Assembly: GCA_949358305.1 (NCBI GenBank)
Contig: OX442314.1
Coordinates: 18,290,001 to 18,354,000 of the forward strand
Length of the DNA stretch: 64,000 nucleotides
Source of the DNA: Strigamia acuminata
Lineage: Eukaryota
Direction: 5' to 3'
A program made the position numbers and the translations under genes. The notes below the pieces were generated by a model, which was not told the DNA's origin, ran no database searches, and saw only the letters and a list, made by a program, of their open reading frames with translations. Each line of letters starts with the position of its first letter. Within the stretch, counting starts at the first letter, position 1. Positions 1 to 32,476 of the stretch are shown here, in pieces.

Positions 1-1805
1 TCCCAAACAAATGGTAAATCTTTTCTTGTTAATGACGATAAGGGCTTGGCAATAGAAGCATAATTGGGGACAAATTTACGTAGATATCCCGTCATGCCCA
101 GAAATCTCTGAACTTCTTTCACCGTGGTGGGGGCAGGAAAACTGTCTATTGCCAAAAGTTTTAATGTGTCGGCCTTAGTGCCTTCTTTTGTAATTCTAAA
201 ACCTAAAAATTTGATTTCAGTTTGTCCAAAACGGGACTTGGTCATGCTCACGGTTAAGCCTGCATTACGTAAGAGTTGTAACACTTGCTTAACATGCTGT
301 AAATGTTCCTCCCACGTCTTGGAATAAATAATAATATCGTCTAAATAGACCAAACAGAACTGGCCGGTTACTGGGGCCAAAATTTGTTCCATCAGATTTT
401 GAAATGTGGCGGGAGCGTTACACAAGCCGAACGGCATGCGTTTAAATTGGTATTTTCCCATTGGGGTGTAAAATGACGTGATCGGTCGGCTATTGGGGTC
501 CATTTCGACCTGGTAGTATCCCTTAACGAGATCCATGGACGTAAAATATTTTGCGTCACCTAAGTATAATAACATCATGTTCAAATCTGGCATGGCGATC
601 GTATCCTGTATGGTGGCCGCATTGACCCATCTATAATCAATGCACAGACGGTAGGATCCGTCGGGTTTGGACACGATCAAGGGGTGAGACACATAAGGAC
701 TAATAGCGGCGGGTTCGATCAAGTCCAAATCGATAAGTTCTTGTACAAGGGTCTTGAGTATGTCACGCTTGGTTGGATTATACATCCGGTATGGAGATTT
801 TCGAGGATTGTCACGTAGCATAATTGTATGCTTGACTATATGAGTACGGCCGGGAGTGTCACTAAACACTGACTGGACACTTTCTAACACTGCTTTTAAT
901 AGAAGGCGTTGATCGGGCGTACAATCGGCGTTTTTAACCAACTTCTCACTCCAGTCGAGCGAACGCTCAATTTGTCGTGATAGCGAAGGAATGTCCTTGG
1001 CGTAAACTGGTGGCACTAGACAATCTTTGGGGACGCCGGGAGGGGTAAATATTGCGTCATGAGGGTCGAGGTCAGCAATCTCCTCTAAAGTAGTACTTGC
1101 ATTTACAAGCGCTTTCCTGACTGCTTTCTTCGCTTTAAATCTCTTGGAACGTAAAACCTTTAAACATTGCTTTTCTAATTTATTAATCTCTTTTTTAGTG
1201 GCATAAGGAATCGCTACATCCGGGTCGTTACCACATCTCGCCAATTGTTCGTCGGGGCGCAAGTATAGAGAGGTTTTGCGCATGAAATTGTGACCAATCG
1301 TTAAATTTGTCACCCTGGGGGGCAAAACTATGAAGGTAAAGGGTGTATGATGATTTGCCCACTGTATAGTGATGTCTACTTTGCCCACCGGCTTGTGTTT
1401 AATTCCGGGGGCAGAAATTCGCACATTCTTTTTAATTTGGCGGACAGATTCGTATTTAATGCCAAAGACAGGTAGAAGCTGCTCGCCAATAAAACAACTG
1501 GTGGCGCCAGAGTCTATTAGCGCCAAGGAGGGGACTCCATTTACGTGAACATTAATTTGGGCGTGGTCCGTAGTTGAGGATGACGCCATTGACATCAAAC
1601 GTTCTGTGAAACGTTCTTTTAAATCGTGGTGAGGCGAGGGATGGGAGGAAAAGGGAAAATCCTCCGAGCCTGCTAGAGCAAGGGACATCTTGTTAAAAGA
1701 GTTGCATAAATTTAAATCTGGGTTAAGAAGTGGGTTGTTAAATTTAATTCCGGTTTGTATTTGGGACTGAACTATTTGGGCGTCAGTCCCGGGTTTAAGT
1801 TTTTT
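1..1805 (-). CDS. pol: Pol polyprotein (aspartic protease + reverse transcriptase; partial, continues beyond window start)
   Basis: Hand translation is open from the slippery site (1799-1805) to [10 protein letters not shown] (Asp codon 1512-1514). RT motifs [14 protein letters not shown] at ~400-440 and VYLDDII at ~330-350. The frame is -1 relative to gag. Its absence from the ORF track is consistent with no stop before the window edge. Confidence 0.93.
1763..1805 (-). promoter_or_regulatory. -1 programmed ribosomal frameshift signal (A_AAA_AAC slippery heptamer + stem-loop)
   Basis: Minus strand reads A AAA AAC (1805-1799) in the gag frame, an 8-nt spacer, then GGGACTGA/TCAGTCCC as a perfect 8-bp stem (1790-1783 / 1770-1763) with the gag TAG in the loop. 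Pol is in the -1 frame. Confidence 0.85.
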
Positions 1806-3679
1806 AGAATGGGGCAGTCTTTTGCACCATGTTCCGCCTCTCGACAGAGGGGGCATTTTGCTAATTCCGCCAGCATTTTAGCAATTAAGGGATCTTCGTG
1901 TTTGCTCTTTTTAGCGTCCTGGGAATTGTGGGAATGAGAATTGGGTCGGTGTTCACGCTTTTTATTATGATCGTTATTGCCTTTAAAGGTGGGGCATTTA
2001 TTTCGAAAATGATCCTTACTTCCACAATTGAAGCAAGTTCCTTTCTCAAACCTTTTTACCTGTTGGCTGATATGATTTAACAATTCCTCACTATGTTCTT
2101 GGTTCTCGTTTTCAGATGCGTCAGAGTTTTCTGAGCTGTCTGAATCCGAAGAAGCCGATATATTATTTAAAATTTTCTTAGCAGAGTTTTTATATTTATT
2201 GTGGTGCCAGTGACGCTTGTGTTTACCGTCGTTATGCTTGACACCTTCTGAATTTTCAGATTTCTTTTCTTCCTTTGTTTCTTTGGGGGCGTCGGCTGCC
2301 TTGGCAGCTGTGGGTTTGTCATCTTTATTATCTTTAGGTTTAGATTTTGTACCTGGGGCGATGGGGTCATTGCCCACTTTGACATCGTACTTCTCCTTGT
2401 CTGCTAATACTTTCTTGTATATCCGTTCTAGATCACCTTTGTCTAAATTGTTTATTTCTAGACGGCTACGAATATCGGGGGTTGCGTAGCGTTGCATCAT
2501 TTTACGCGCAACGATTCCGTTGTACGTAGATTGCTGTCGCCAGCAGTTATAATAGCGCAACACGTAGTGATACACTGTCTCTCCTTCCTCTGCGACCTGC
2601 TCGAAGCAGAGCTCGCCTCTCTGATCTTCATTTAATCCAAATCTGTTTTGGAAAACGGTCTTAAAATCTTCCCAAACAGTGAGAGTCGGCGCGAAATCGT
2701 CATACCAGGTGGCAGCCACTCCTGTGAGGTATGAGGGAACACATTGAGTGATCGCCTCGTTAAGAGGGCAACCTTTATTTCGCGCTGCAGCGATTACAGC
2801 GTCGATAAACAAATTACATTCTGCAGGAGTGCCTTCTCCTGTGAAGCGGGGCACCTCCAAACCTTTGAAAGTGTAACGACGAGGGTCGTTCTGTGTAGAA
2901 TTTGATTGATCATTGGGGGGAGGAGTACGATCTCGCTGTCGTCGCTGATCAGCTTGGTCAGCCTGGAAGGTTGTAAAACTTGTGGCTAGCTGCCTGATAC
3001 TGTCAAACATATTAACTAACATATCATTCGAGACCGTAGAAGTACTAGAAGAATGCGAGCGGGCAGGGGACGTGTTTATTCGTCTACGAGGGTTTCCGTG
3101 CGGAGTCGAATGGTTATGTAAATTGGGGTCAATAATACGTGGTGGAGTAGTGGGTCTAGGTTGATGGGTTGGTGTGTTTCCACCAGCATTAGCTTGTTGA
3201 TTTAATGTGGCTTGTGCCTGAGCTTGGGCTAATGCTATCGCATCGGCTTGGGCTTTGGCTTGGGCATCCGTCTGAACTTTGGCTAATGCTAACGCATCGG
3301 CTTGGGCTTGGGCTTGGGCATCCGCCTGAGCTTTGGCTTGAGCATCTGCCTGAGCTTTGGCCTGAGCATCTGCCTGAGCTTTGGCCTGAGCATCTGCCTG
3401 AGCTTTGGCCTGAGCATCTGCCTGAGCTTTGGCCTGAGCATCTGCCAAAATTTGTGCAGTTCTTGCAACAAAGTCATTAATATCTACGTAACTGGCGGGG
3501 TCTATTCCCACCAACACACCAAGATTCAGGAGAGCGGGCAAATCAACTGTCTGGGCGGCGCTGAGGTCCAAAGTAACCTGCTGCCCTTGACTACCGCCGG
3601 CCTGAGGCTCGATATTACTCGAATTTAAATCACCAGGGGAAGTCACTACAGTGGGGTTCGTTTTATTACGGCCCGTCAT
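1772..3679 (-). CDS. gag: Retrotransposon Gag with Ala/Gln repeat, capsid-like region and two CCHC zinc knuckles
   Basis: ORF 1772-3697 with first ATG at 3679. Contains [10 protein letters not shown]...[12 protein letters not shown] (retrotransposon gag signature) and knuckles [14 protein letters not shown] and [14 protein letters not shown]. Confidence 0.93.
3205..3445. repeat. 24-bp coding tandem repeat in gag (AQAKAQAD)n
   Basis: Unit CTGAGCATCTGCCTGAGCTTTGGC is near-perfect at ~3325-3445, with degenerate copies down to ~3205. Confidence 0.95.
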
Positions 3680-4895
3680 TATTACCACGGATGTCAAAAT
3701 TTAAGCTTTCAAATAATTATTTAAAACACTTTCCTTCCTCTTCTTGAATTATTTCTGATATTCTCAGAAAACTCAAGCGATAAATGGATCAAGTCTAAAA
3801 TTGATCGGTACACAATGGAATTCCTAAATTCAAGCGAATTCAAGAAGCTTATGATTCTAGTGCAAAATATCAAAACGTCTCAACAATACTAACAATTACT
3901 TTTCTCGTGATAGAAAATGTCAAAATGAAATTTGCCTACCGTCGGTGGAGAGTTCGAATCGGATTTCGGGAGTCGTCTAAAGTTTGCAGTGTTTCAGCTT
4001 TTCAGGGAAGTGGTCGTCTGGTACACGTGGGTATGCAGAAGAAGTACTTCGAGAAGTGAACAGAATCGAGGGAAAACTAGGGTTTTATAACTTTGATATT
4101 TACAAAGGAAATAATTATTTGGCAGACATAGGATTATGTTAATGGCAATAATTGCCTGTCTGGCGACGTTGAGTCGGCACAGGGAAAGTTTGGCATAAAG
4201 GACAGGAACTTGAAACAATAGGGATTAGGTTTCACAAGATGGTGCTACAAATTTTTAGTTAGAGCAATTATCCAGAAATATGTTTGAAGTTTGAAGAATG
4301 TAAGGTTTCAAGATGTTAATCCAATTTAATTATTGAACATAAGAGAAGAAATTAATTTTAATGTCGATTTGTTAGGAAATATAATTTTATTTTTAATTCT
4401 AATATTTATTTTTATGAAAAGCAAAGAATGTGAAAGTAAATGTCAGGAGAATCCTTTATCAAAAGAATCCTTGAAAGTAGTTATGGGGAAATGAGTATTT
4501 ATTCATAGTGAAATGTTTAATTTGTAGAGTATTTTTAGTTTGTATAATTGGTTAAAGCTGGGGTCTTTGACTTGTAAACCCAGTAGGTGGTTGAGGGGTG
4601 AGCAGCAAAGAAGGAAGGGGAAAGGTCGTTAAGTGGTAGCCTTAGGCTGGCTGACCAACATCTGTTCCTTGGCACACTTCAACCTATTTTTTACACACAC
4701 TGAAAAATACACTTTATACACAAATTAATACACAAAACCCATAAATTTAGATTTTAAAACACTATAATTAATGAAAACATTTAAGACTCTTTGATTTTCA
4801 AACAAAAATCAAATATCATATTTTCGCAATTTTTCAAAATTGCACCAGATTGATCTATCAATTTGAATATGCAAATTAACTACTTAATTATGCAC

Positions 4896-22544: not shown

Positions 22545-25500
22545 ATGAGCAATAAAGAAGAAAGCATAATCGAATCTAACGCCGATAATGAACGAGTGAG
22601 TAAAGAAATTGAATCTAACGATGCTGTGGAAGAGGAGAAAGAGAAGGAAAATAAGGTGACCGTTTTCTCGTTGAACGAACAAGCTCAAGTGGATGTAAAG
22701 ATGGAAAAAACGTCTGAAACTGATTCTCCTTTCGGTGAAGCTGGAGACGACGAAGGCGAAGACGTACCAGAAGCTTCTCAAGGGGAACCGGGCAAATTTT
22801 TTTTCCTCCTGCTACCGATTCACTGCGCCAAAGGAAAAGGCGGACGAAAAGTATACAAGTGCGACGTGTGCGGCGGAGTGTATCGACACGCGTTCAGTCT
22901 AAAGCGCCATTATCTACGGACTCACATAAATTACGAATACTTGAGCGAAGCGGATATTTCGAATTGCAACATCAGCGTCACGCAGACGACGAAATCGCCA
23001 CAAGAAGAAGAATTGGAAATTAATCCGGAATTGATGAACGGGTTGTACAGGTGTCACATGTGCTCTCAGTTGTTCGACCGAATTGGCCAGCTAAAATATC
23101 ATATCCTCAATCATCCCACGCAAGCAAACGACAAGAGATTTCCATGCAACCAATGCGATATGACTTTTTCCCATCGACAAAATCTCGTTCGCCACTTGTC
23201 GGTCCATTCTGGTGAAAAACCTTACCCGTGTCGTTACTGCGGAAAATGTTTCCCTACCGCAACAAACCAGAAGAGACACGAACGCATTCACGAAGGCGTT
23301 AAACCTTACGCGTGCGAACATTGTTCGTCATTATTTACCCAGAGCGGCGACTTGAAAAAGCATATCCGGAAACAACACTCGTCCTTTTTCCATCCGTGCG
23401 CGTTTTGCGTCAAGTATTTTATCGACGAGACACAACTCGAGAAACATTTGGCAATGCACGGAGAAAATGTGGAGACTAATCGTCAAGAAGTGGCAAAAAG
23501 GAACGCGGGCGGGGTACAGAGTAACAAAAACTCGCCTTCGTTGAGACGAGGAGGAAGCCAGAAGTCGATTTTGGACGCGAATAAATTTACTTGCAGCACT
23601 TGTTCCAAGACGTTTAGCAACTACATAAGTCTCCGCAGGCACGGACAGTCGATGCATAATGTGAGAAGCGCAAATTCCTTGCAATCTACTGCCGTTTCGA
23701 ACAGAGGCGAGGACGCGCCAACAGAATGCCTGCTGACGGATGCCGATTTTTACGCAGACATCGCGTACAACATCTCGGACAATCTGCTCAACCACCTCGA
23801 TGGAAAATTGTACGACCCTCAACAGCCGACACCGCCGACGGACGACGATAGCAACACGCCGTCACCGCCGGTGGGCGATCGAACATCGGTTAGACGAAAT
23901 CTTCAACAGGATTGGACTTCGTACAATTTTCCTTCTTGGTTCAACGTGGAAGCGGATGTCGATTCTGCCGTCGATAAAAATGCGTCGACGCCATTGGAAA
24001 TTTGTGATTTGAGCTTAAACAAAACACCAAAGAAAAACCAAACTACTCGCGAAACGCAAGAGGTGCACGTTGAATCGGTGACCTTGTCTCACTCCGATAT
24101 GCTGTACAGTTTGGCCTTGTCACCCGTCAATAGCAGCTCTTGCAGCGATTTTCAATGCGTCGACGGCGTGTTAGATTTATCTCTACCTGGAAAAGATAGA
24201 AGGGAATATTCATCCGAAACGCTACCTCAGGCCTGGGATTTACCGACCACTTTTGTTTGTTTTGCTTGCGGTGAAAATGTGGATTCGTTCGACGATATGG
24301 AAGATCACAAGATCAACAATCACCCAAATGTGTATTGCACACATCTGGAGATTGAAGGGATCAAAGACGTGCCTTTGCAACTTTTCAAGCAACATTGCAG
24401 TCCTTTTGGAATTCTACAAAATTGCACAGTTCCACCAATCATATCCGTAGTAGAAAACCTGATTTGCACAAAATGCAGCAGCAGCTTCTCCTCAGTCACC
24501 GAACTTCATTGTCACATGTTGGAGTGTGGCGGCCACAAGGAAAACCTGAGATCGAGTCCGCGTCACGGACGCAATAAATCGAGGAAACGTAAAACGGTGA
24601 AGCGAGGAATGAAGAGGAAATTGGAAGACACGCCGCAGAAGAAGAGCACTCCTTCGGTTGTGAAAAAAGCGAAGACATCGCATTCGACATCCGATCGATC
24701 GTCTCAAACGTCTAGTCGGTCGTCCGGGTCAACAAAAGTACCTTCGTTCGCATGCGCCGCGTGTGACAAGAAGTTCAGTCAACAGTGCCAGTTGGACAGA
24801 CACGTGAAAATTTGTCCACAAAATGCTGCTAAGAAAGTTGAATCGCCCAAAGAAGCGGATAAGCAACAACACATGTGTTCTTACTGCGCTCGCTCTTTCA
24901 CTTATTTGGCCAGTTTGAAGAAACATATGACCGATTGCGTTTTGCGTAAAGAGAAGAAGAGGAGATTGAGTGCGAGCAAGAGTGAGGGGAAAAGCTCGAA
25001 GCGAGTTAAGAAGGCCGAAAGTGTACCTCAACCCAGTTCGCCGGGGCCTGACGAAGAATCAAACAGTTCGGAATTTTCGGAAGAAAGGCCATCGTCCGTT
25101 TTGAAGATTAAACAAGAGGTCGCGGAGGATCAGTCCGTTGACGACGTTCAATGTTGCGACATATCACCCGAAGAGGAAGACGACGTCAAAAAGGTTGTGG
25201 CTGAAATCAAGTTGGAGGAAGACAAGAAAGGCGACGGCAGTGGACATTGCCACGCGTGCCCGCATTGTAGGCGAACGTACACTTATTTGGCGAACTTTAA
25301 GAAACATGTGTCGGAGGCTTGTCCGTTGCGGAAAGAAATAACCAAAGATGCGTCGAAGGAAGACGAAAAAGAGATTTATAATGTGGATGATGAAGATGAT
25401 TTGTCGCCGGAAGAGAACGAGAACGAGAACGAGGAAGTGGAAAAGGCCGAAGTTGAGGCTGATAACGAGTCGAGCAAGAGTTTGGAAGTGCCGGAAGAAT

Positions 25501-26180
25501 TGTCGTTGGACGAATTAGAGGAAGATAGCAAGTCGGAATCAAAGAAAAACAAAAAATCAAAGGGAAACGAACATTTTACTTGCGCAACGTGCGAGAGAAA
25601 TTTTGCTTCGTACGTCAAGTTATTGCAACATCAATTGTCTCATAAATTAAAAGCGCAGGTGAGCCCTGATGGCGGGAAAAAGGCACAGGCGAGCGGCGAG
25701 ACGAAACAAGTGGTTAATGTGGCGAGAAATAGGAAGAAGAAAATGGCTTCGGCGAGCAAAGCGCCAACGAAACACAAGGGAGGTTGGCCCAAAGGAAAAA
25801 GTCGGAAAGGCTACGTTGCGAAACACAAAAGAGGTGGCAAGAATGCGAAAGCGAAAGTGCCGAAAGCCGAAAACAACAAAGTAAAGGATGACGAGGTGGA
25901 GGAAAGTGCGGATTTAGGAGTTGAGAATACAACGGAGGAGAGTGAAGTTAAATTGACGGAGGAAGAAGGGGCATCAGAAACGAGTGGAGAAGATGTTAAT
26001 TCTCAAACTGTTGAAAGTTTATTAATTTCAAGCAAAGTGCCTCTGGAGGAGCAGAAAAAGAACAATAAAGTATTGACCGTCGCCCATCTTGTGGATCCTT
26101 GCGTCTTGCAACGGATGAGGCAGAAGAAAAGTTCATTGCCATCAACTGAAGCTGCTCCTCCAACTGTGGTTGCAAGTTGA
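22545..26180 (+). CDS. Multi-zinc-finger (C2H2/C2HC) protein, PRDM2/RIZ-like, single coding exon, no PR/SET domain
   Basis: 1211-aa ORF with many C2H2 fingers and HSGEKPY linkers. Blocks resembling PRDM2 as recalled: NISDNLLNHLDGK, HPNVYCTHLE, CTKC...ELHCHMLEC, CSYCARSFTYLASLKKH. PxDLS-like motifs ICDLS and VLDLS. Zinc-finger identity is certain, PRDM2 orthology is less so. Confidence 0.8.
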   Translation: MSNKEESIIESNADNERVSKEIESNDAVEEEKEKENKVTVFSLNEQAQVDVKMEKTSETDSPFGEAGDDEGEDVPEASQGEPGKFFFLLLPIHCAKGKGGRKVYKCDVCGGVYRHAFSLKRHYLRTHINYEYLSEADISNCNISVTQTTKSPQEEELEINPELMNGLYRCHMCSQLFDRIGQLKYHILNHPTQANDKRFPCNQCDMTFSHRQNLVRHLSVHSGEKPYPCRYCGKCFPTATNQKRHERIHEGVKPYACEHCSSLFTQSGDLKKHIRKQHSSFFHPCAFCVKYFIDETQLEKHLAMHGENVETNRQEVAKRNAGGVQSNKNSPSLRRGGSQKSILDANKFTCSTCSKTFSNYISLRRHGQSMHNVRSANSLQSTAVSNRGEDAPTECLLTDADFYADIAYNISDNLLNHLDGKLYDPQQPTPPTDDDSNTPSPPVGDRTSVRRNLQQDWTSYNFPSWFNVEADVDSAVDKNASTPLEICDLSLNKTPKKNQTTRETQEVHVESVTLSHSDMLYSLALSPVNSSSCSDFQCVDGVLDLSLPGKDRREYSSETLPQAWDLPTTFVCFACGENVDSFDDMEDHKINNHPNVYCTHLEIEGIKDVPLQLFKQHCSPFGILQNCTVPPIISVVENLICTKCSSSFSSVTELHCHMLECGGHKENLRSSPRHGRNKSRKRKTVKRGMKRKLEDTPQKKSTPSVVKKAKTSHSTSDRSSQTSSRSSGSTKVPSFACAACDKKFSQQCQLDRHVKICPQNAAKKVESPKEADKQQHMCSYCARSFTYLASLKKHMTDCVLRKEKKRRLSASKSEGKSSKRVKKAESVPQPSSPGPDEESNSSEFSEERPSSVLKIKQEVAEDQSVDDVQCCDISPEEEDDVKKVVAEIKLEEDKKGDGSGHCHACPHCRRTYTYLANFKKHVSEACPLRKEITKDASKEDEKEIYNVDDEDDLSPEENENENEEVEKAEVEADNESSKSLEVPEELSLDELEEDSKSESKKNKKSKGNEHFTCATCERNFASYVKLLQHQLSHKLKAQVSPDGGKKAQASGETKQVVNVARNRKKKMASASKAPTKHKGGWPKGKSRKGYVAKHKRGGKNAKAKVPKAENNKVKDDEVEESADLGVENTTEESEVKLTEEEGASETSGEDVNSQTVESLLISSKVPLEEQKKNNKVLTVAHLVDPCVLQRMRQKKSSLPSTEAAPPTVVAS

Positions 26181-27726
26181 TAATACATAGTTTTAAAAAG
26201 TTGACAGTGACTTAATATAGTTTTGATAATAGGGGCGTGTTAGTTGTATATTTCTAGAGGAATGCCTTCCAATTTGAACCGAAAATATGTTATAAGATTT
26301 TAAAAACGTTTCATCTAAAATGCTTGTTATATTTACTTGTTTTTGTATTGTTTTAATGGACAATAGGTTATGATTATTATTATGAGTTGCACCCGTTTGA
26401 AATTATGTTGATGCAGTTTTTGTTTTTGTTTTTTGTTTTGCTTGATGAAAACAGAAATACAGGTATTAAAAATTGAGACAATCTGGAGATATCAGTTTAT
26501 ATTAATAATATCCTGTAAGTGCCTCCTGCCTGATTATAAATACATACAAAGTTATTTAGAAATTGAAAAAAAATATTTACAAGCGTTTGAAAAATTCAAA
26601 TTTTGTACAAATTTTTAAAATCGAATTAACCTCTTAATACTATTGATATAAAATGTTTGTTGGGGAAGTTTATATAAGCAGATTTTCAAACAAATATATA
26701 TCATTATATATTTAATTTGAGAGCTTTTTTTTCCCCTTGGAAACTTTTCAATACACGAAACGAAATCATTATTCTATTGTTTATGAGTTCTTAACAATAA
26801 TTCCTTTTGTTATTAGTAAAAAAAAAAATAGAATTTCTAAAAAGTATTGTTAGTGCCTGGAATTGAAAATTAAATACCGTATGTATACAATTATTTTTCA
26901 AATTAATTATAGGTGCCTTAGAAGATTTTAGGAAGTTTTGTTTTCGATTACAAATTGCAATAAGTGTAATAATGTTTTTAATTGTAGTTATTATTGGTAT
27001 GTTTTGATTTGCTCTTTTTGAATATACTTGTTATGTTTGAAAGCTAGAGAAATGAAATTGAGCCAAATTAACATTAAGCTCATTAGTTATTTTTATTATT
27101 TTCCTTTTTGTTGCTCATTTACGTTTACATTTTGTTTGTGCAAATCAAGTCGGATTTAGTAGTCACATTTTTTTTCACTTTTAAGCTCAATTGCTCATAA
27201 ATGTTAGCAATTTTTTGAAAAGTTTTCATAGCAATAATATTAATAATGTAATAAATAATTTTTTGAACAATTTTAGTTTGATTTGTTTGAGCAATAAATT
27301 TAGTTTTTGTTCATTTTTTTGCCTCATTTCTAATTATATATTTTGATAACTAATGAATGTCATTTACATATAAGAAATTATTGTTTTGAATGAAAGATGT
27401 TTTCACTAGATATTTCGCAAATTTAGGCAAATCATTTTTTTTTCCCATGTAAAGTATCTTTAATTTTTCAATTTTTTCATTTTTGAAATAAAATCTAATA
27501 ATAATTGCAAAAACATTTAAATCGACTGCTAATACGGATCAATTTCGATACACGATGTCGCTGTATTGCTGGTGGCGGTAATGATATCGCGAATAAACAA
27601 ATGAGTAGGCGGGATCTGCGCAGAAACCCACGATAACGGTTCGCATTGAGGTTGTTTTCGCCGCGCCATCGCCACACTCAATCAGCCGTTGTGAAGCTGC
27701 CAGGTGTGTAAAGAAAACAATCGACA

Positions 27727-30400
27727 ATGTCCAATCCAGTGTAAGTAATAATTTTTTTTTCTCGAAAGTAACGTATCAGTGAATATTTAGTCATGTCGCG
27801 TTTCACAAATTGAATGACAGTTATTTTTTTCCTCTAATTTTTTCATAAATTGGATTTTTTTTTTTCAAAACACCTTGACCTTGCCCTTTGGTTGCTTAGG
27901 AGACGCTTGTGGTTGCTCCTATTTCCCTGGGTCGCTAAGCTTTTTAACTTTAAACAAGGAGTGGTTTTTGTACAGTAAATAGAACCCTGGGTTCTTTTTT
28001 GTTTGTTTTTTAATATTTGATTTTCTTTTATTTGTTCCAACTATCAAATATTTTCCTTGAATGACTTGCACTTTATTTTCTAACTTGTAAATTAAACGTT
28101 AGATAATAAATTGTATAAGATTTTTTGTTCACACATATATTTATTGTTTTGCAATTTCGTACAAATTTAAAAAAATGTAAACTTCACGCCATATTGAATA
28201 ACCTCTCAAGCTTAACTGTAATTCTGGAAATTGTGTCAAACCTTGCGTCAACTTTTAAAGAACTCATTTTTTTTCCGACAAGTTTACTTCAACGGTACCT
28301 CTTGAAATTACATTTTATAAATCATGGGAAACGCTGCCTGCTCCAAACAAAAAGAGGAACAAGTGTAAGGAAACTTTAGTGCAACAGCGAGAGTGTTAAT
28401 CAATTTATTATTTAACCAAATTTAAAAAATTACATAATTACAAAATTTTAATTTGTTTTTTTCGTGTTTTAGTGCCGATATTGCCATGATTGGCTTGGCC
28501 GTCATGGGCCAGAATTTAGTACTTAACATGAACGACCATGGGTTTGTGGTAAATTTATATACTAATTCTCATCATAGTAGTCAACAAAATGATAATTTTT
28601 TTCTTTTCTAGGTTTGTGCTTACAACCGCACTACTGCCAAAGTGGACCAATTTCTCGCAAACGAAGCAAAAGGGACCAAAGTGGTCGGCGCTCACTCTCT
28701 CGAGGAAATGGTCAGTAAATTGAAGAAGCCACGTCGTGTTATGATGCTCGTTAAAGGTAATTTTAAATGACCTTGCAAATGGCCTTGTAATGTTGAATAA
28801 TTGCTGAGTAATCGTTCGATTGTAGCTGGAAGTGCGGTGGATGATTTCATCGAGAAGTTGGTACCTCTTTTGGAAAAGGGAGATATTATCATTGACGGTG
28901 GGAATTCTGAATACCAGGATACTGACAGACGTTGTAAAACTTTGAAGGAAAAGGGTATTTGGTTTGTTGGCTCTGGTGTTAGTGGAGGAGAGGATGGAGC
29001 TCGGTATGGACCCTCACTTATGCCTGGTGGACAGAAAGAAGCTTGGTAAAAGGAATTTTATATTTTTGTTTATAAATGATGAGAATATTTTAATTTAGGC
29101 CACACATTAAAGCGATTTTCCAAGGCATTGCGGCTAAGGTCGACAATGAGCCATGTTGCGATTGGGTAATTTTATTTTTTAGAGATTTTAATTATTGTTA
29201 AATTTTTCATACTTTCTTCAAAGGTTGGTGAAGATGGGTCTGGTCATTTTGTGAAAATGGTTCACAATGGAATCGAATACGGGGACATGCAATTAATCGG
29301 TGAAGCTTACCATTTATTAAAAGATTCTTTGGATTTATCCCACGATGAAATGAGTGATGTATGAATTGTTATTTCTGATTATTAATTTAATTTTCAACTT
29401 GAGTGAAATTTAACCATAGATTTTTGGCGAATGGAACAAAGGAGAATTGGATTCTTTTCTCATTGAAATAACTCGCGACATTTTGAAATTCAAAGACGAC
29501 GATGGAAAGCCATTAGTCGAGAAAATCTTGGATTCAGCCGGACAGGTCACTATTTAAACCACTGCTAATTTTGATCGATTAAATGGGCGACTAAAATTTC
29601 AGAAAGGAACCGGAAAATGGACCGCAATAGCGTCGTTGGAGTACGGCATGCCCGTAACCCTAATCGGTGAATCCGTGTTTGCTCGATGTTTGTCCTCGTT
29701 GAAAGCCGAACGAGTAATTGCTAGTAAGCAATTGAAGGGACCAAAAGAGACCAAGCATAAGGGCGACAAGAAACAATTTGCCGAGCACGTTAGAAAGGTA
29801 ATTCATAATTCCCCGGTGCTGTTATTATAGTAGATTTATTTACAAACTTAACCTATTAATTGTTTTTAGGCTTTATACGCGTCTAAAATTGTGTCGTACG
29901 CTCAAGGTTACATGTTGCTTCGCGAGGCTGCAAAATTATTTAATTGGGATTTAAATTACGGAGGAATTGCGCTCATGTGGCGAGGAGGTTGCATCATTCG
30001 TAGTGCCTTTTTGGGAAATATCAAAGCGGCGTTTGAAAAGGACAAATCCTTGAGTAATTTACTGCTCGACGACTTCTTCCGGAAAGCTATTGATGATTGC
30101 CAGGATTCATGGCGTTTGGTCATCATGGAGGCAGTCAAGCTAGGAATTCCCACTCCATGTTTTGCAACTGCCCTCGCCTTCTACGATGGATACCGTTCGG
30201 AAAATCTTCCAGCCAATTTAATACAAGTATTTAAATTCATTCAAGGTCTATGCAGGTTTCACGACGTTAACTCTTTGCAGGCACAACGAGATTACTTCGG
30301 CGCCCACACTTACGAACTTCTCGCTTCCCCGGGGAAATTCGTTCATACCAACTGGACCGGCCACGGTGGCAATGTGTCTGCCTCCACTTATAAAGCTTAA
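27727..30400 (+). CDS. PGD: 6-phosphogluconate dehydrogenase, decarboxylating, multi-exon
   Basis: [95 protein letters not shown]. Confidence 0.98.
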
Positions 30401-30644
30401 ACCATCTCGCGACGACCATGATATTCAGCACTAATCAAATTTTGAACAAATCTATTTTTTCTGATGATATTTAGCTGTTGCATTAAATTTGAATGAAACT
30501 AAGTATTGAACAATGTTTGCCTTTATTTACGTTTATATAAATTTCATATCCCATAATGAGTTTTCTTGAAAATGAAAAAAAAAGCAACTGGCCAAGAAAA
30601 TTATAAATCCGAATCAGTGACGCATATTACACCAAACTGAAATG

Positions 30645-32476
30645 TCACGAGCTTTTTTCTTTTTTGGTCCGTTTTCTGTTTTTACACGTATCCTTTTCCA
30701 ATTCTTCTTGGTTCACAATTTCAAAACCGTTTGTCTCCTCACTTTCGGAATCCGTTTGATCTCGTTCTGACGTTTCCTTCTCTTCCCCTTCTTTACTTTT
30801 TATAGATTTTGTCTTCTCCGTCGTTTCTTGCTTCTCGCTGCCCTTGTATTCATACTGAAAAACAAACAAACAAAAATTTATCAAGCCTCGTGATTCGTTG
30901 AGCAATATGCACGATATCAACCTTGAATAAGGGCCAAAAGGATTCGAAAAAACCAACGTCTTCGGTCAGATTTGGTAATATCCATAAATGATGTTTTCCG
31001 AACGACACCAACCAAATCACGCAGAAAGTGATCAGACGCACTAAATATTCAAAAACTCGCTTTAATCCGAGTAAAGTCGTTTTTAATAGAATATTTACTT
31101 ATGATTAAGGCAACGATGACGCAGAGAAACGCAGCAGCTGCCACACTCACGTAGTAAACGCCTTTTCGCACTGAAGAAGGCCAAAGAGGAAAAAGACAGA
31201 GCAGAATGGCACCCACAACTAAACAACAAGCAATAAAAGTTACACTTAATTACGCAATCAAATATAATTGAATGTTTTACCCAATAAACTGCCAATTAAC
31301 CAAGCTGTTGTTGGTATAGGATCGTAAATCCAAACGTACGCCTTAAAAACATTAAATTATTATAATGATCAATTAAATTTAGTGCTTACTCACTTCGCTT
31401 CCATCCACAAATATTTGTTCCAAATGCATATCAAGTTTGATTTTTCTCTTTTCCTTCTTTTTTTCTTTATCGCCCGAAACATCCTTTGGTAACGCCAACT
31501 GTAAACAATAGAATTTAGCCGTAATATAAAGATCAGACGGTTGTTTTCGAGCCGTTTTACTTGTTTGTTTTTCGACTCGCTATCTTTATCCTTTTTCTTC
31601 TTTTCCACGCTTTTCTTTTCCTCTTTATCGTTCGGATTACTACTATCGTCTTGATCTTTTAGTTTCTTTTTTGTTTTTACATCTCTTTGGGATATTAAGA
31701 TTTTTTTGGCGCGATGGAAAAATTTATGAATGAGCATCCTAATAAATAAAAAATAAAATAAATAAAAAATTTGAAAATAATTAAATTAAACTTACGTATT
31801 TAAATATTCAATAACCGATTCCCTCGATGTAAACAGAGCTTCTTTTCCTTTCTTATTCGTTGCCCATGGCGAATCTAGTAAACATTCCACAGCTTTGGAT
31901 GCTGAAAACCAAAGAAATATCATTTTAGTCAACAAAAATAAATTATTCTGTTTAATTAATTATACAAACCAATGAAATATTCCACTTTATGGCTTAACAA
32001 ACTTGCTTTCTTCAATGGTACATGGTTCCTCATATATTTGGCCACCGCATACTCTTCTTTCGACGGTTTTTCGTCCACTTCCTACCGGATACAAAACATT
32101 CAAAGGGTTAATACAGCTGGCTGACGTGTCAACTGTCAGGTGTATACATATGTAACTTGACTAAATAAAGATCGAACAAAACTTAATAATTTAATCATCT
32201 TAACTTGATCGCTATTAAAAATTGTACACATCAGAATTATTAATTGGATTTCGCTTAATATTTTTATTAAACAGATGTTTACAAGATAGATTTAGGCCTA
32301 CACGATAAACGTGTTGCCGTTGCTGCTAAGAATCAGTTTGAACAGAATCAATGGTACATTGTTTAGGTAAATTTTTATATCGACAACATACATGGAACAG
32401 AAAAATATACGAAATCTGTACATATGAAAGATCCATTTACCTCCTTCCGCTTTCGACCTTTGCGTTTGTCAGCCAT
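30645..32476 (-). CDS. SEC62: Translocation protein SEC62, multi-exon
   Basis: MADKRKGRKRKE|EVDEKPSKEEYAVAKYMR, KAVECLLDSPW, Lys-rich loop, YVWIYDP, LFPLWP, HHLWILPNLTEDVGFFESFWPL, acidic tail with NGFEIV. Confidence 0.95.

What the first reader, a model, noticed from the sequence alone, without database searches (positions are those of the whole stretch)
28324..28364. Second PGD first exon encoding an N-myristoylation/palmitoylation-type leader
Seen: inside PGD intron 1, AAATC-ATG GGA AAC GCT GCC TGC TCC AAA CAA AAA GAG GAA CAA GT|GTAAGG ends in the same phase and the same GT|GTAAG junction as the upstream first exon (ATG TCC AAT CCA GT|GTAAGT, 27727-27740). Both splice in frame to 28473, giving [21 protein letters not shown] versus MSNPV-ADIAMIG. 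Established: Met-Gly-Asn with a small residue at position 6 and a nearby Lys is a favourable N-myristoyltransferase substrate (compare PKA C-alpha MGNAAAAK), and a nearby Cys is often palmitoylated. Inference: an alternative promoter yields a membrane-anchored 6PGD for local NADPH supply, whereas 6PGD is normally a soluble enzyme.
Basis: partly seen in the sequence, partly recalled or inferred. Interest (0 to 1): 0.8.

Follow-up and report, generated by a model that had tools for sequence, protein, structure and literature searches.

The report
Lipid-anchor leader exon of centipede 6PGD
A 41-base second start exon inside the first intron of a centipede's 6-phosphogluconate dehydrogenase gene encodes a Met-Gly-Asn...Cys leader that also heads this enzyme in another centipede, a horseshoe crab and many crustaceans, and it is predicted to fasten part of this normally soluble NADPH-making enzyme to membranes through two fatty-acid anchors.

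Summary
ATG 28324 to GT 28364, followed by GTAAGG, lies in PGD intron 1. It joins exon 2 (28473) in the same phase as the canonical first exon (27727-27740). It is not chance. It is the only ATG-started frame in the 732-base intron that ends at a GTRAG donor in the needed phase. Only 2 of 20,000 shuffles gave such a frame with a myristoylation-type start plus a Cys. Its GC is 46% against 22-29% in the flanks.

The resulting 493-aa isoform has the same length as the Strigamia maritima PGD model and is 90.7% identical to it. That model starts MGNSPCSK, against MGNAACSK here.

MG...Cys leaders also head PGD isoforms in Limulus, copepods, decapods, an isopod, a barnacle and Artemia, usually beside a leaderless isoform. 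None was seen in the hexapod records examined.

The one spliced transcript contig of this species uses exon 1a only, so use of exon 1b here is inferred. Acylation, membrane binding and a separate promoter are predictions.

Five paper searches found no report of a lipid-anchored 6PGD. The closest known analogue is sperm hexokinase HK1S.

Verdict: real, conserved alternative 5' coding exon; a new member of a known kind; interest moderate to high.

The parts
27685..27740 (+). Exon 1a. The 5'UTR runs from at least 27685 and the canonical start is ATG 27727-27740 (MSNP + GT), with donor GTAAGT at 27741.
   Evidence: Sequence. The X3 spliced contig has 56 bases on this side of joint 27740>28473.
27741..28472 (+). 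Intron 1 of the canonical transcript (732 bases, GC 0.29). It contains exon 1b.
   Evidence: Joint 27740>28473, GT..AG. Composition.
28324..28364 (+). Coding part of alternative 5' exon 1b. It gives [13 protein letters not shown] plus GT of a split Val codon. Its 5' limit (transcription start or acceptor) is unknown.
   Evidence: Sequence. Only candidate in the intron, with the shuffle control. GC island of 0.463. Same-length leader in Strigamia PGD.
28318..28320 (+). In-frame TAA just upstream of ATG 28324. It fixes this ATG as the first start in the frame.
   Evidence: Sequence.
28365..28370 (+). Donor GTAAGG of exon 1b. Same phase and same AGT|GTAAG junction as exon 1a.
   Evidence: Sequence.
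28473..28548 (+). Exon 2, shared by both isoforms. It starts the Rossmann strand and the NADP-binding glycine motif ([14 protein letters not shown]...).
   Evidence: Joints. GT..AG placement. Translation.
28612..30400 (+). Exons 3-10 of PGD: 28612-28756, 28826-29045, 29099-29165, 29224-29358, 29420-29545, 29603-29797, 29870-30226 and 30281-30400 (stop at 30398-30400). The poly(A) site is near 30502.
   Evidence: Joints and A-run loose end. Exact GT..AG cuts. CDS of 1455 bases. Pfam PF03446 and PF00393 on single exons.
27701..27709 (+). Donor-like CAG|GTGTGT in the 5'UTR of exon 1a, upstream of ATG 27727. A possible alternative donor if exon 1b is an internal exon. Untested.
   Evidence: Sequence only. 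Consensus recalled.
28264..28282 (+). T-rich tract followed by AAG (AG at 28281-28282), the nearest AG upstream of ATG 28324. It is a weak candidate acceptor. Alternatively the transcript starts somewhere in this region. Untested.
   Evidence: Sequence only.

Best explanation
Bases 28324-28364 are a conserved alternative 5' coding exon of a centipede 6-phosphogluconate dehydrogenase (PGD) gene. It replaces the 5-residue canonical start with a 14-residue leader, MGNAACSK..., which is predicted to be N-myristoylated on Gly2 and S-palmitoylated on Cys6, so that this isoform would sit on the cytosolic face of membranes.

Shown:
- the exon's anatomy and phase;
- its improbability by chance;
- its coding-like composition;
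- its counterpart in Strigamia;
- the recurrence of MG...Cys leaders on PGD isoforms across chelicerates, myriapods and crustaceans, on mRNA-sized contigs and in RefSeq isoform pairs.

Inferred:
- that this species splices 28364 to 28473;
- that Met is removed and N-myristoyltransferase acylates Gly2 during translation;
- that a DHHC palmitoyltransferase then acylates the nearby Cys (two-signal model, recalled);
- that the tethered dimer makes NADPH next to membrane-bound consumers.

How the exon enters the mRNA is open. I put about 55% on its own transcription start inside intron 1, and about 45% on splicing from a donor in the exon 1a 5'UTR, such as 27703|27704. In both cases ATG 28324 would be the first AUG.
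For: (1) Anatomy and chance
- exon 1b is the only candidate in the intron.
- 2 of 20,000 shuffles gave an ATG frame ending at a phase-correct GTRAG donor with a myristoylation-type start and a Cys.
- GC is 0.463 against 0.292 and 0.222 in the flanks.

(2) Ortholog
- isoform B is 493 aa and aligns 1-493 to 1-493 with Strigamia maritima PGD (P0002, UniRef100_T1JHS4) at 90.7% identity.
- the two 14-residue leaders share 7 of 14 residues. 6 of the first 8 are identical (M, G, N, C, S, K) and only 1 of the last 6.
- the window and Strigamia are sisters (SH-aLRT 100).

(3) Recurrence
- of the 179 proteins returned by two unbiased PGD searches, 147 have a Met start and a recognisable core. Of these, 21 start MG, and 15 start MG with a Cys at positions 3-10.
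- Named cases: Limulus polyphemus X1 (MGNCVHKC; X2 lacks it), Lepeophtheirus salmonis X1, Artemia franciscana X1 (X2 lacks it) and Pollicipes.
- Further named cases: Scylla X1 and Penaeus japonicus; Tigriopus and Armadillidium vulgare.
- Neocalanus flemingeri transcriptome proteins exist in both forms, 493 aa and 484 aa.

(4) Constraint sits on the acylation part
- In the calanoid copepods, MGN[ST]ATVCK stays fixed while the residues after it vary.
- In the malacostracans, MGNxPC[KR]T[IL]KT is kept from crab to isopod.
- In the leader set I picked for having MG and Cys, M1, G2 and one Cys column align. This is invariant by selection, not a test.

(5) Motif
- 35 of 43 distinct MG+Cys leaders fit the recalled PROSITE PS00008-type pattern.
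- The Cys lies at positions 4-8 in all but one of them, where it is at position 10.

(6) Placement on the fold
- homology to solved 6PGDH (1PGN/2PGD) starts exactly at residue 15 of the Strigamia protein. The leader is therefore an appendage in front of the first Rossmann strand.

(7) Precedent
- PMC4736023 (abstract read): sperm hexokinase HK1S has a unique N-terminus, MGQICQ. Gly2 is myristoylated, Cys5 is putatively palmitoylated, and both are needed for plasma-membrane location.
Against: - The only transcript-like data for this species, one 1,622-base spliced contig in run X3, joins 27740 directly to 28473 and so skips exon 1b. No joint 28364>28473 was listed. Such contigs drop minor forms.
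- No transcription start, cap or acceptor for exon 1b is known. The nearest upstream AG (28281-28282) is an AAG, a weak acceptor, and the TATAAA at 28316-28321 is too close to the ATG to serve it (rules recalled).
- The Strigamia protein is a gene model whose transcript support I could not see.
- No acylation experiment exists for any PGD leader. 8 of 43 distinct MG+Cys leaders, including the Limulus one, fail the simple pattern.
- Cys6 is the only Cys in this leader. From recall, Cys6 of Fyn is a much poorer palmitoylation site than Cys3. The leader's net charge is about zero (K8, K10, E11, E12), so myristate alone would bind weakly.
- Scolopendromorph centipede and millipede records show only leaderless forms. 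The trait is therefore patchy, or under-sampled, within myriapods.
Confidence: 0.65

Rival explanations
1. The exon is real and conserved, but the leader gives only myristoylation, or a weak and reversible attachment. It would act as a switch or protein-protein contact, and the isoform would be mostly soluble rather than stably anchored.
For: - There is a single Cys at position 6, and acidic residues cancel the two lysines.
- Leptotrombidium has an MGKSFGKSYK leader without Cys.
- 13 of 56 distinct MG leaders lack an early Cys.
- From recall, myristate alone binds membranes weakly.
Against: - A Cys within residues 4-8 is kept in 42 of 43 distinct MG+Cys leaders, across chelicerates, myriapods and crustaceans, while the surrounding residues change.
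- That is the pattern expected if the Cys itself is under selection, as in HK1S, where Cys5 is needed for membrane location (PMC4736023, abstract).
Confidence: 0.2
2. The exon is a conserved coding leader with a function unrelated to lipids. Examples are a degradation or regulatory signal, or targeting to another compartment, as in the peroxisomal PTS2 leaders of fungal PGD.
For: - PGD genes in fungi use alternative 5' ends to add targeting signals (PMC7214817, listing and start of abstract; earlier scan notes e1-9524576 and e1-7126817).
- No acylation has been measured for any PGD leader.
Against: - The conserved residues are exactly Met-Gly at the start and a nearby Cys.
- The leaders otherwise differ in length (11-38 residues) and in sequence.
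- None carries a PTS2-like or presequence-like pattern that I could see. This was judged by eye, not by a predictor.
Confidence: 0.08
3. The frame is a chance open frame in the intron, or a relic no longer used in this species. On this view the Strigamia start is an artefact of gene prediction.
For: - The one transcript contig of this species skips it.
- 1,647 of 20,000 shuffled introns contain some ATG frame ending at a phase-correct donor.
Against: - Only 2 of 20,000 shuffles reach the full pattern.
- Exon 1b is a GC island.
- The Strigamia leader has the same length, the same phase and the same M, G, N, C, S, K, although the enzyme as a whole differs at 9.3% of residues.
- Independent transcript-derived proteins in copepods carry the same kind of leader.
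Confidence: 0.05

Closest known systems
Sperm-specific hexokinase 1 (HK1S) with its unique N-terminal MGQICQ motif (PMC4736023; abstract read)
   Same: A soluble-type sugar-metabolism enzyme receives a short, isoform-specific N-terminus. Gly2 is myristoylated and a Cys a few residues on is the putative palmitoylation site. Both are needed for plasma-membrane location.
   Different: The enzyme is hexokinase, the setting is mammalian sperm, and the acylation was shown by experiment. Here the cargo is PGD, the taxa are arthropods, and nothing has been measured.
NADH-cytochrome b5 reductase, with membrane and soluble forms from one gene (PMC2289487; listing and start of abstract)
   Same: One gene gives a myristoylated membrane form and a soluble form. 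They differ only at the N-terminus and arise through alternative promoters and first exons.
   Different: The b5 reductase membrane form also has a hydrophobic anchor stretch and no palmitoylation. It is an NADH user, not an NADPH producer.
Fungal and plant PGD isoforms with alternative N-termini for peroxisomes (PMC7214817 and PMC11103113; listings and starts of abstracts. Earlier scan notes e1-9524576 and e1-7126817.)
   Same: It is the same enzyme, and the same strategy is used: a cryptic or alternative 5' coding segment redirects part of the PGD pool.
   Different: The signal there is a PTS2 for import into peroxisomes, made by alternative splicing or non-AUG starts. Here the signal is a lipidation-type leader for the cytosolic face of membranes.
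SH4-type dual-acylation leaders of Src-family kinases such as Fyn (PMC2132482, listing and start of abstract; the Fyn sequence is recalled)
   Same: Met-Gly start, a Cys at position 6 followed by Lys or Ser-Lys, and membrane binding by myristate plus palmitate.
   Different: Fyn relies mainly on Cys3, as the paper's title states. The centipede leader has only Cys6, and its cargo is a metabolic dehydrogenase.
PKA catalytic subunit alpha N-terminus
   Same: It starts Met-Gly-Asn-Ala-Ala.
   Different: PKA has no Cys there and is myristoylated only. The resemblance is a lead, not a test.

Membership tests
6-phosphogluconate dehydrogenase, decarboxylating (long-chain dimeric type) | N-terminal NAD(P)-binding domain (Pfam PF03446) | tested here: met
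   exon 4 scores 81.4 bits (cut-off 21) and exon 3 scores 21.1 bits.
6-phosphogluconate dehydrogenase, decarboxylating (long-chain dimeric type) | C-terminal 6PGD domain (Pfam PF00393) | tested here: met
   exon 9 scores 161.1 bits and exon 8 scores 68.1 bits (cut-off 27).
6-phosphogluconate dehydrogenase, decarboxylating (long-chain dimeric type) | Full-length colinearity with characterised or solved PGDs | tested here: met
   90.7% identity to Strigamia PGD over 493 residues, and 75-84% to other arthropod PGDs; the Strigamia protein matches sheep 6PGDH 1PGN at E = 3.8e-259 from residue 15 onward.
N-myristoyltransferase substrates | Initiator Met followed by Gly2 | tested here: met
   ATG GGA at 28324-28329.
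N-myristoyltransferase substrates | Permissive residues at positions 3, 6 and 7 (PROSITE PS00008-type pattern, recalled) | tested here: met
   G-N-A-A-C-S fits the pattern. 35 of 43 distinct MG+Cys PGD leaders fit it. No dedicated predictor was available.
N-myristoyltransferase substrates | Myristate actually attached to Gly2 | not testable with these tools
   This needs metabolic labelling or mass spectrometry.
Dual-acylated (myristoyl plus palmitoyl) N-terminal leaders | Cys within a few residues of the myristoylated Gly | tested here: met
   Cys6 here. In relatives the Cys lies at positions 4-8, with one at position 10.
Dual-acylated (myristoyl plus palmitoyl) N-terminal leaders | S-acylation of that Cys and membrane location that depends on both sites | not testable with these tools
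   This needs acyl-exchange chemistry and imaging of G2A and C6S mutants.
Alternative first exon / alternative 5' coding exon | A donor in the same phase as the canonical first exon, joining the shared exon 2 in frame | tested here: met
Alternative first exon / alternative 5' coding exon | Transcripts that join 28364 to 28473 in this species | tested here: inconclusive
   the one spliced contig of run X3 joins 27740 to 28473. No other transcript data were offered.
Alternative first exon / alternative 5' coding exon | Own transcription start (alternative promoter) | not testable with these tools
   No CAGE or 5' end data. Copepod proteins suggest a cassette mode in that lineage.

The most novel reading that the evidence does not exclude
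A lipid-anchored isoform of 6-phosphogluconate dehydrogenase is an ancient trait of arthropods. It is kept in horseshoe crabs, centipedes and most crustacean groups, and apparently dropped in insects. A tiny alternative 5' exon tethers the NADPH-yielding step of the oxidative pentose phosphate pathway to the inner face of membranes. There it would feed membrane-bound NADPH users such as oxidases or lipid-protecting reductases.
Probability: 0.45. Interest if true: 0.78.

Novelty: new member of a known kind. Interest (0 to 1): 0.64.

Why it matters
6PGD is textbook-soluble in animals. Compartmentation of cytosolic NADPH supply is an open problem, because NADPH is assumed to diffuse freely from the pentose phosphate pathway.

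A conserved leader that would pin 6PGD to membranes gives a concrete handle on local NADPH production in a whole phylum. It can be tested by mutation (G2A, C-to-S). Tractable systems exist: Artemia, shrimp and crab haemocytes, copepods, and Limulus amoebocytes.

It would also explain why RefSeq lists two PGD isoforms in many arthropods. And it points to a possible loss in insects, which may be why model-organism work never met this isoform.

For annotation: micro-exons of about 40 bases in first introns can change an enzyme's location and are easily missed.

Tried and rejected
**RNA evidence in this species**
- The look-up of sequencing runs listed no RNA holder. It gave 3 runs of kind '?'.
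- X1 and X2 hold the whole stretch unspliced and behave as DNA. X3 behaves as a transcriptome.
- In one search, X3 gave 2 laid records. No X3 contig covers 28206-28364. This blank says nothing about expression.
- I did not use the second read-laying run, because no further run was on offer.

**Own genome**
- None is held. Copy number of PGD, and of the exon, could therefore not be checked.

**Genomic DNA of Strigamia or any other arthropod**
- It is not in the collections these tools reach. Conservation of the exon against its flanking intron, and dN/dS, could not be computed.

**Earlier scan notes**
- Nothing on this genome and nothing on lipidated PGD. Only fungal PTS2 cases, a Trichoplax first-exon array and bacterial gnd operons turned up.

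**Literature**
- Five searches found no paper on an acylated or membrane-anchored 6PGD.
- Their terms were:
  - 6-phosphogluconate dehydrogenase + myristoyl;
  - + N-myristoylation / palmitoylation;
  - pentose phosphate pathway + myristoylated + alternative first exon;
  - 6PGD + membrane-anchored + myristoylation;
  - 6-phosphogluconate dehydrogenase + shrimp + cDNA + isoform.
- I read listings only. The library lacks most subscription journals.

**Readings considered and dropped**
- Exon 1b as a cassette after donor 27740. By my own reading, the 82 bases from 28283 to 28364 would shift the frame. The exon 1a ATG would then head a roughly 50-codon upstream frame overlapping ATG 28324.
- The TATAAA at 28316-28321 as the promoter of exon 1b. 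It lies 3 bases from the ATG.

**Other**
- Structure and complex prediction were not run. They would not bear on acylation.
- Tree placement of the unnamed leader-bearing proteins P0006 and P0247 failed, with no supported clade.
Full report
**1. The observation**

- The canonical first coding exon is ATG 27727 to GT 27740, followed by GTAAGT.
- Inside the next intron, ATG 28324 opens 13 codons plus two bases, ending at GT 28364, followed by GTAAGG.
- Exon 2 starts at 28473 after ...tag.
- Both first exons end AGT|GTAAG in the same phase. The T at 28473 completes a Val codon in both.
- An in-frame TAA at 28318-28320 makes ATG 28324 the first start in its frame. Position -3 is A and +4 is G.

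**2. The gene**

Stop-to-stop frames and a spliced, polyadenylated 1,622-base contig of run X3 define a ten-exon PGD gene on the + strand.
- The joints are 27740>28473, then eight more GT..AG introns of 53-72 bases.
- An A-run loose end lies at 30502.
- Exact cuts were fixed by GT..AG.
- The coding sequence is 1,455 bases, with the stop at 30398-30400.
- Single exons hit Pfam NAD_binding_2 (81.4 bits) and 6PGD (161.1 and 68.1 bits).
- With exon 1a the protein is 484 aa. With exon 1b it is 493 aa.

**3. Chance**

Exon 1b is the only ATG-started open frame in the 732-base intron that ends at a GTRAG donor in the phase exon 2 needs.

In 20,000 dinucleotide-preserving shuffles of the intron:

| Shuffles with at least one... 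| Count |
|---|---|
| such frame of any kind | 1,647 |
| frame whose peptide fits a PROSITE PS00008-type myristoylation pattern (recalled) | 4 |
| frame that also has a Cys in residues 3-10 | 2 |

The exon is also a composition island:

| Segment | GC |
|---|---|
| exon 1b | 0.463 |
| intron upstream of it | 0.292 |
| intron downstream of it | 0.222 |
| exon 2 | 0.474 |
| exon 1a | 0.429 |

**4. The organism and the ortholog**

- A search with exon 9 put Strigamia maritima PGD (P0002, UniRef100_T1JHS4) on top among single-copy proteins, at 92% identity.
- A tree of 49 PGDs, with leaders cut off, joins the window to Strigamia (SH-aLRT 100) and then to Scolopendra (84). The window therefore comes from a centipede related to Strigamia. 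It is a different species: identity is 90.7% over the full length.
- The Strigamia protein is 493 aa, the same as isoform B, and aligns 1-493 to 1-493 without gaps.
- Its leader is MGNSPCSKHEKEHI, against [14 protein letters not shown] here. The length is the same. 6 of the first 8 residues are identical and 1 of the last 6.
- A chance frame in one species' intron would not be kept in length, phase and acylation-relevant residues in another species whose enzyme differs at 9.3% of positions.
- The Strigamia entry is a gene model. I could not see its transcript support.

**5. Recurrence across arthropods**

Unbiased sample. Searches returned 179 proteins. Of these, 147 have a Met start and a recognisable ADIALIGLAVMG-type core. 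21 start MG, and 15 start MG with a Cys at positions 3-10.

Cluster look-ups and a search with a profile of 12 leader-bearing N-termini (biased towards leaders by design) added more.

Named records with such leaders:

| Species | Leader |
|---|---|
| Limulus polyphemus isoform X1 (XP_022241232.1) | MGNCVHKC...; X2 starts MSSEK |
| Lepeophtheirus salmonis X1 | MGVCFSVK... placed before the canonical MSEPV |
| Tigriopus californicus XP_059089103.1 | MGICFSS... |
| Neocalanus flemingeri transcriptome proteins | both forms: 493 aa (MGNSATVCK-M...) and 484 aa |
| Artemia franciscana X1 | MGATACKH...; X2 lacks it |
| Pollicipes pollicipes | MGNVISCRRK... |
| Scylla paramamosain X1 | MGNAPCRTIK... 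|
| Penaeus japonicus | MGNVPCRTIK... |
| Armadillidium vulgare KAL7632609.1 (its source name carries 'UNVERIFIED_CONTAM') | MGNAPCKTIK... |

Weaker cases:
- Centruroides X1 and Macrobrachium X2 models hold the same kind of motif internally, behind a longer predicted start. I count these as hints only.
- Leptotrombidium has MGKSFGKSYK without Cys.

Unnamed proteins:
- Those starting MGNAACKSL... share the first six residues with the window and group next to Isopoda plus Decapoda (SH-aLRT 93).
- Many leader forms sit on contigs of 1.6-2.1 kb that carry the whole frame. For an intron-bearing arthropod gene this means mRNA (inferred).
- In the calanoid cluster, leader forms were seen on as many contigs as leaderless ones. 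For example P0183 was seen on 18 contigs, and P0184 on 5.

Over all 354 proteins held (a biased set), 181 distinct N-termini were found. 43 are MG plus an early Cys, and 35 of these fit the pattern.

**6. Where it was not seen**

- Hexapod records show only short canonical starts and carry no isoform label. They are four Schistocerca entries, Ischnura, Hetaerina, two Leptopilina, Thrips palmi, Anabrus, Copidosoma and Ladona.
- Two scolopendromorph centipedes and a millipede also show only short starts.
- Long alternative starts in Nematostella, Ptychodera and a turtle are not of the MG-Cys kind.
- This is absence from the records I saw, not proof of loss.

**7. What is conserved**

Within lineages the first 8-11 residues are kept while the linker drifts.
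- MGN[ST]ATVCK stays fixed in calanoids whose next residues vary.
- MGNxPC[KR]T[IL]KT is kept from crab to isopod.
- MGNxxCSK is kept in the two centipedes.

Between lineages only Met-Gly, mostly Asn3, and a Cys mostly at positions 4-8 are common. That is the footprint expected of selection for N-myristoylation plus nearby S-acylation, and of little else.

**8. Mechanism**

Shown:
- The leader lies entirely in front of the fold. Homology of the Strigamia protein to sheep 6PGDH (1PGN/2PGD) begins at residue 15, two residues from the start of the solved chain.

Inferred from established rules (recalled):
- Met removal and co-translational myristoylation of Gly2.
- Transient membrane sampling.
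- Palmitoylation of Cys6 by a DHHC enzyme.
- Stable binding to the cytosolic leaflet, with about eight residues linking the anchor to the NADP-binding domain.
- Because PGD is a dimer, a homodimer would carry two anchors and a mixed dimer one.

The purpose, NADPH made next to membrane-bound consumers, is a hypothesis.

**9. How the exon enters the mRNA**

This is open.
- The nearest upstream AG (28281-28282) is an AAG behind a T-rich tract, which makes a weak acceptor. This favours an own transcription start inside the intron.
- On the other hand, a good donor-like CAG|GTGTGT sits at 27701-27709, in the exon 1a 5'UTR and upstream of ATG 27727.
- Copepod proteins read from 5' regions show the leader-coding piece present or absent between the same flanks. 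P0038, P0151 and P0314 have it; P0315 and P0317-P0319 lack it. That is a cassette mode.
- Inclusion after donor 27740 is unlikely. By my own reading, the 82 bases would shift the frame and put an overlapping upstream frame before ATG 28324.

**10. Evidence against, and limits**

- The only transcript contig of this species skips exon 1b. Such contigs keep the major form.
- No RNA run was listed and no genome is held.
- No acylation of any PGD has been measured.
- 8 of 43 leaders fail the simple pattern, Limulus among them.
- Cys6 as the sole Cys may be a modest palmitoylation site (recalled from Fyn).

**11. What is known**

Five searches of the paper library found nothing on an acylated or membrane-anchored 6PGD (listings only).

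Closest by mechanism:
- HK1S, a sperm hexokinase isoform whose unique MGQICQ start is myristoylated on Gly2. It needs Cys5 for plasma-membrane location (PMC4736023, abstract read).
- NADH-cytochrome b5 reductase, whose myristoylated membrane form and soluble form come from alternative promoters (PMC2289487, listing and start of abstract).

Closest by enzyme:
- Fungal and plant PGD isoforms redirected to peroxisomes through alternative 5' coding segments (PMC7214817 and PMC11103113, listings and starts of abstracts). This scan has also met them on other DNA (e1-9524576, e1-7126817).

**12. Verdict**

The exon is real as a conserved coding feature (about 0.9). Lipid anchoring is the best reading of it (about 0.65 overall). 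It is a new cargo for a known device, so I file it as a new member of a known kind. It has phylum-wide reach and can be tested directly.

Noticed in passing
window 22545-26180 (+): A single 1,211-codon open frame with C2H2 zinc fingers (Pfam zf-C2H2, 105.7 bits). It coincides with the GC-richest part of the window (0.43-0.46). It is the upstream neighbour of PGD.
   Followed up: partly
window 1772-3700 (-): A 642-codon open frame with weak retrotransposon gag and zinc-knuckle hits. Probably a retroelement remnant.
   Followed up: partly
window 30502-30922: The PGD poly(A) site (A-run at 30502) and that of a convergent minus-strand gene (T-run at 30506; contig with a CT..AC joint 30854>30922) lie about 3 bases apart. 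The two 3' ends abut.
   Followed up: no
proteins P0038, P0151, P0314 versus P0315, P0317-P0319 (marine catalogue, copepod-like): Frames read through the 5' region show the leader-coding piece (...DLSKP-MGNSAT) present or absent between the same upstream and downstream segments. In that copepod lineage the leader therefore seems to come from a micro-exon of about 33 bases, not from a separate promoter.
   Followed up: partly
proteins P0001 (Romanomermis, 758 aa), P0122 (757 aa), P0109 (Stylophora, 759 aa): PGD records about 1.5 times the normal length. They score as if part of the enzyme were present twice. They may be tandem duplications or model fusions.
   Followed up: no
window 28677-30813, run X3: The transcript contigs differ from the window at 22 listed sites, 13 of them C>T, while the DNA-like runs X1 and X2 match the window. 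This looks like strain or population difference. Editing was not examined.
   Followed up: no
proteins P0224, P0226 (Centruroides X1) and P0277 (Macrobrachium X2): Annotated starts lie 29-64 residues upstream of an internal MG..C motif of the same kind as the leaders elsewhere. The annotated start codons may be too far upstream.
   Followed up: no
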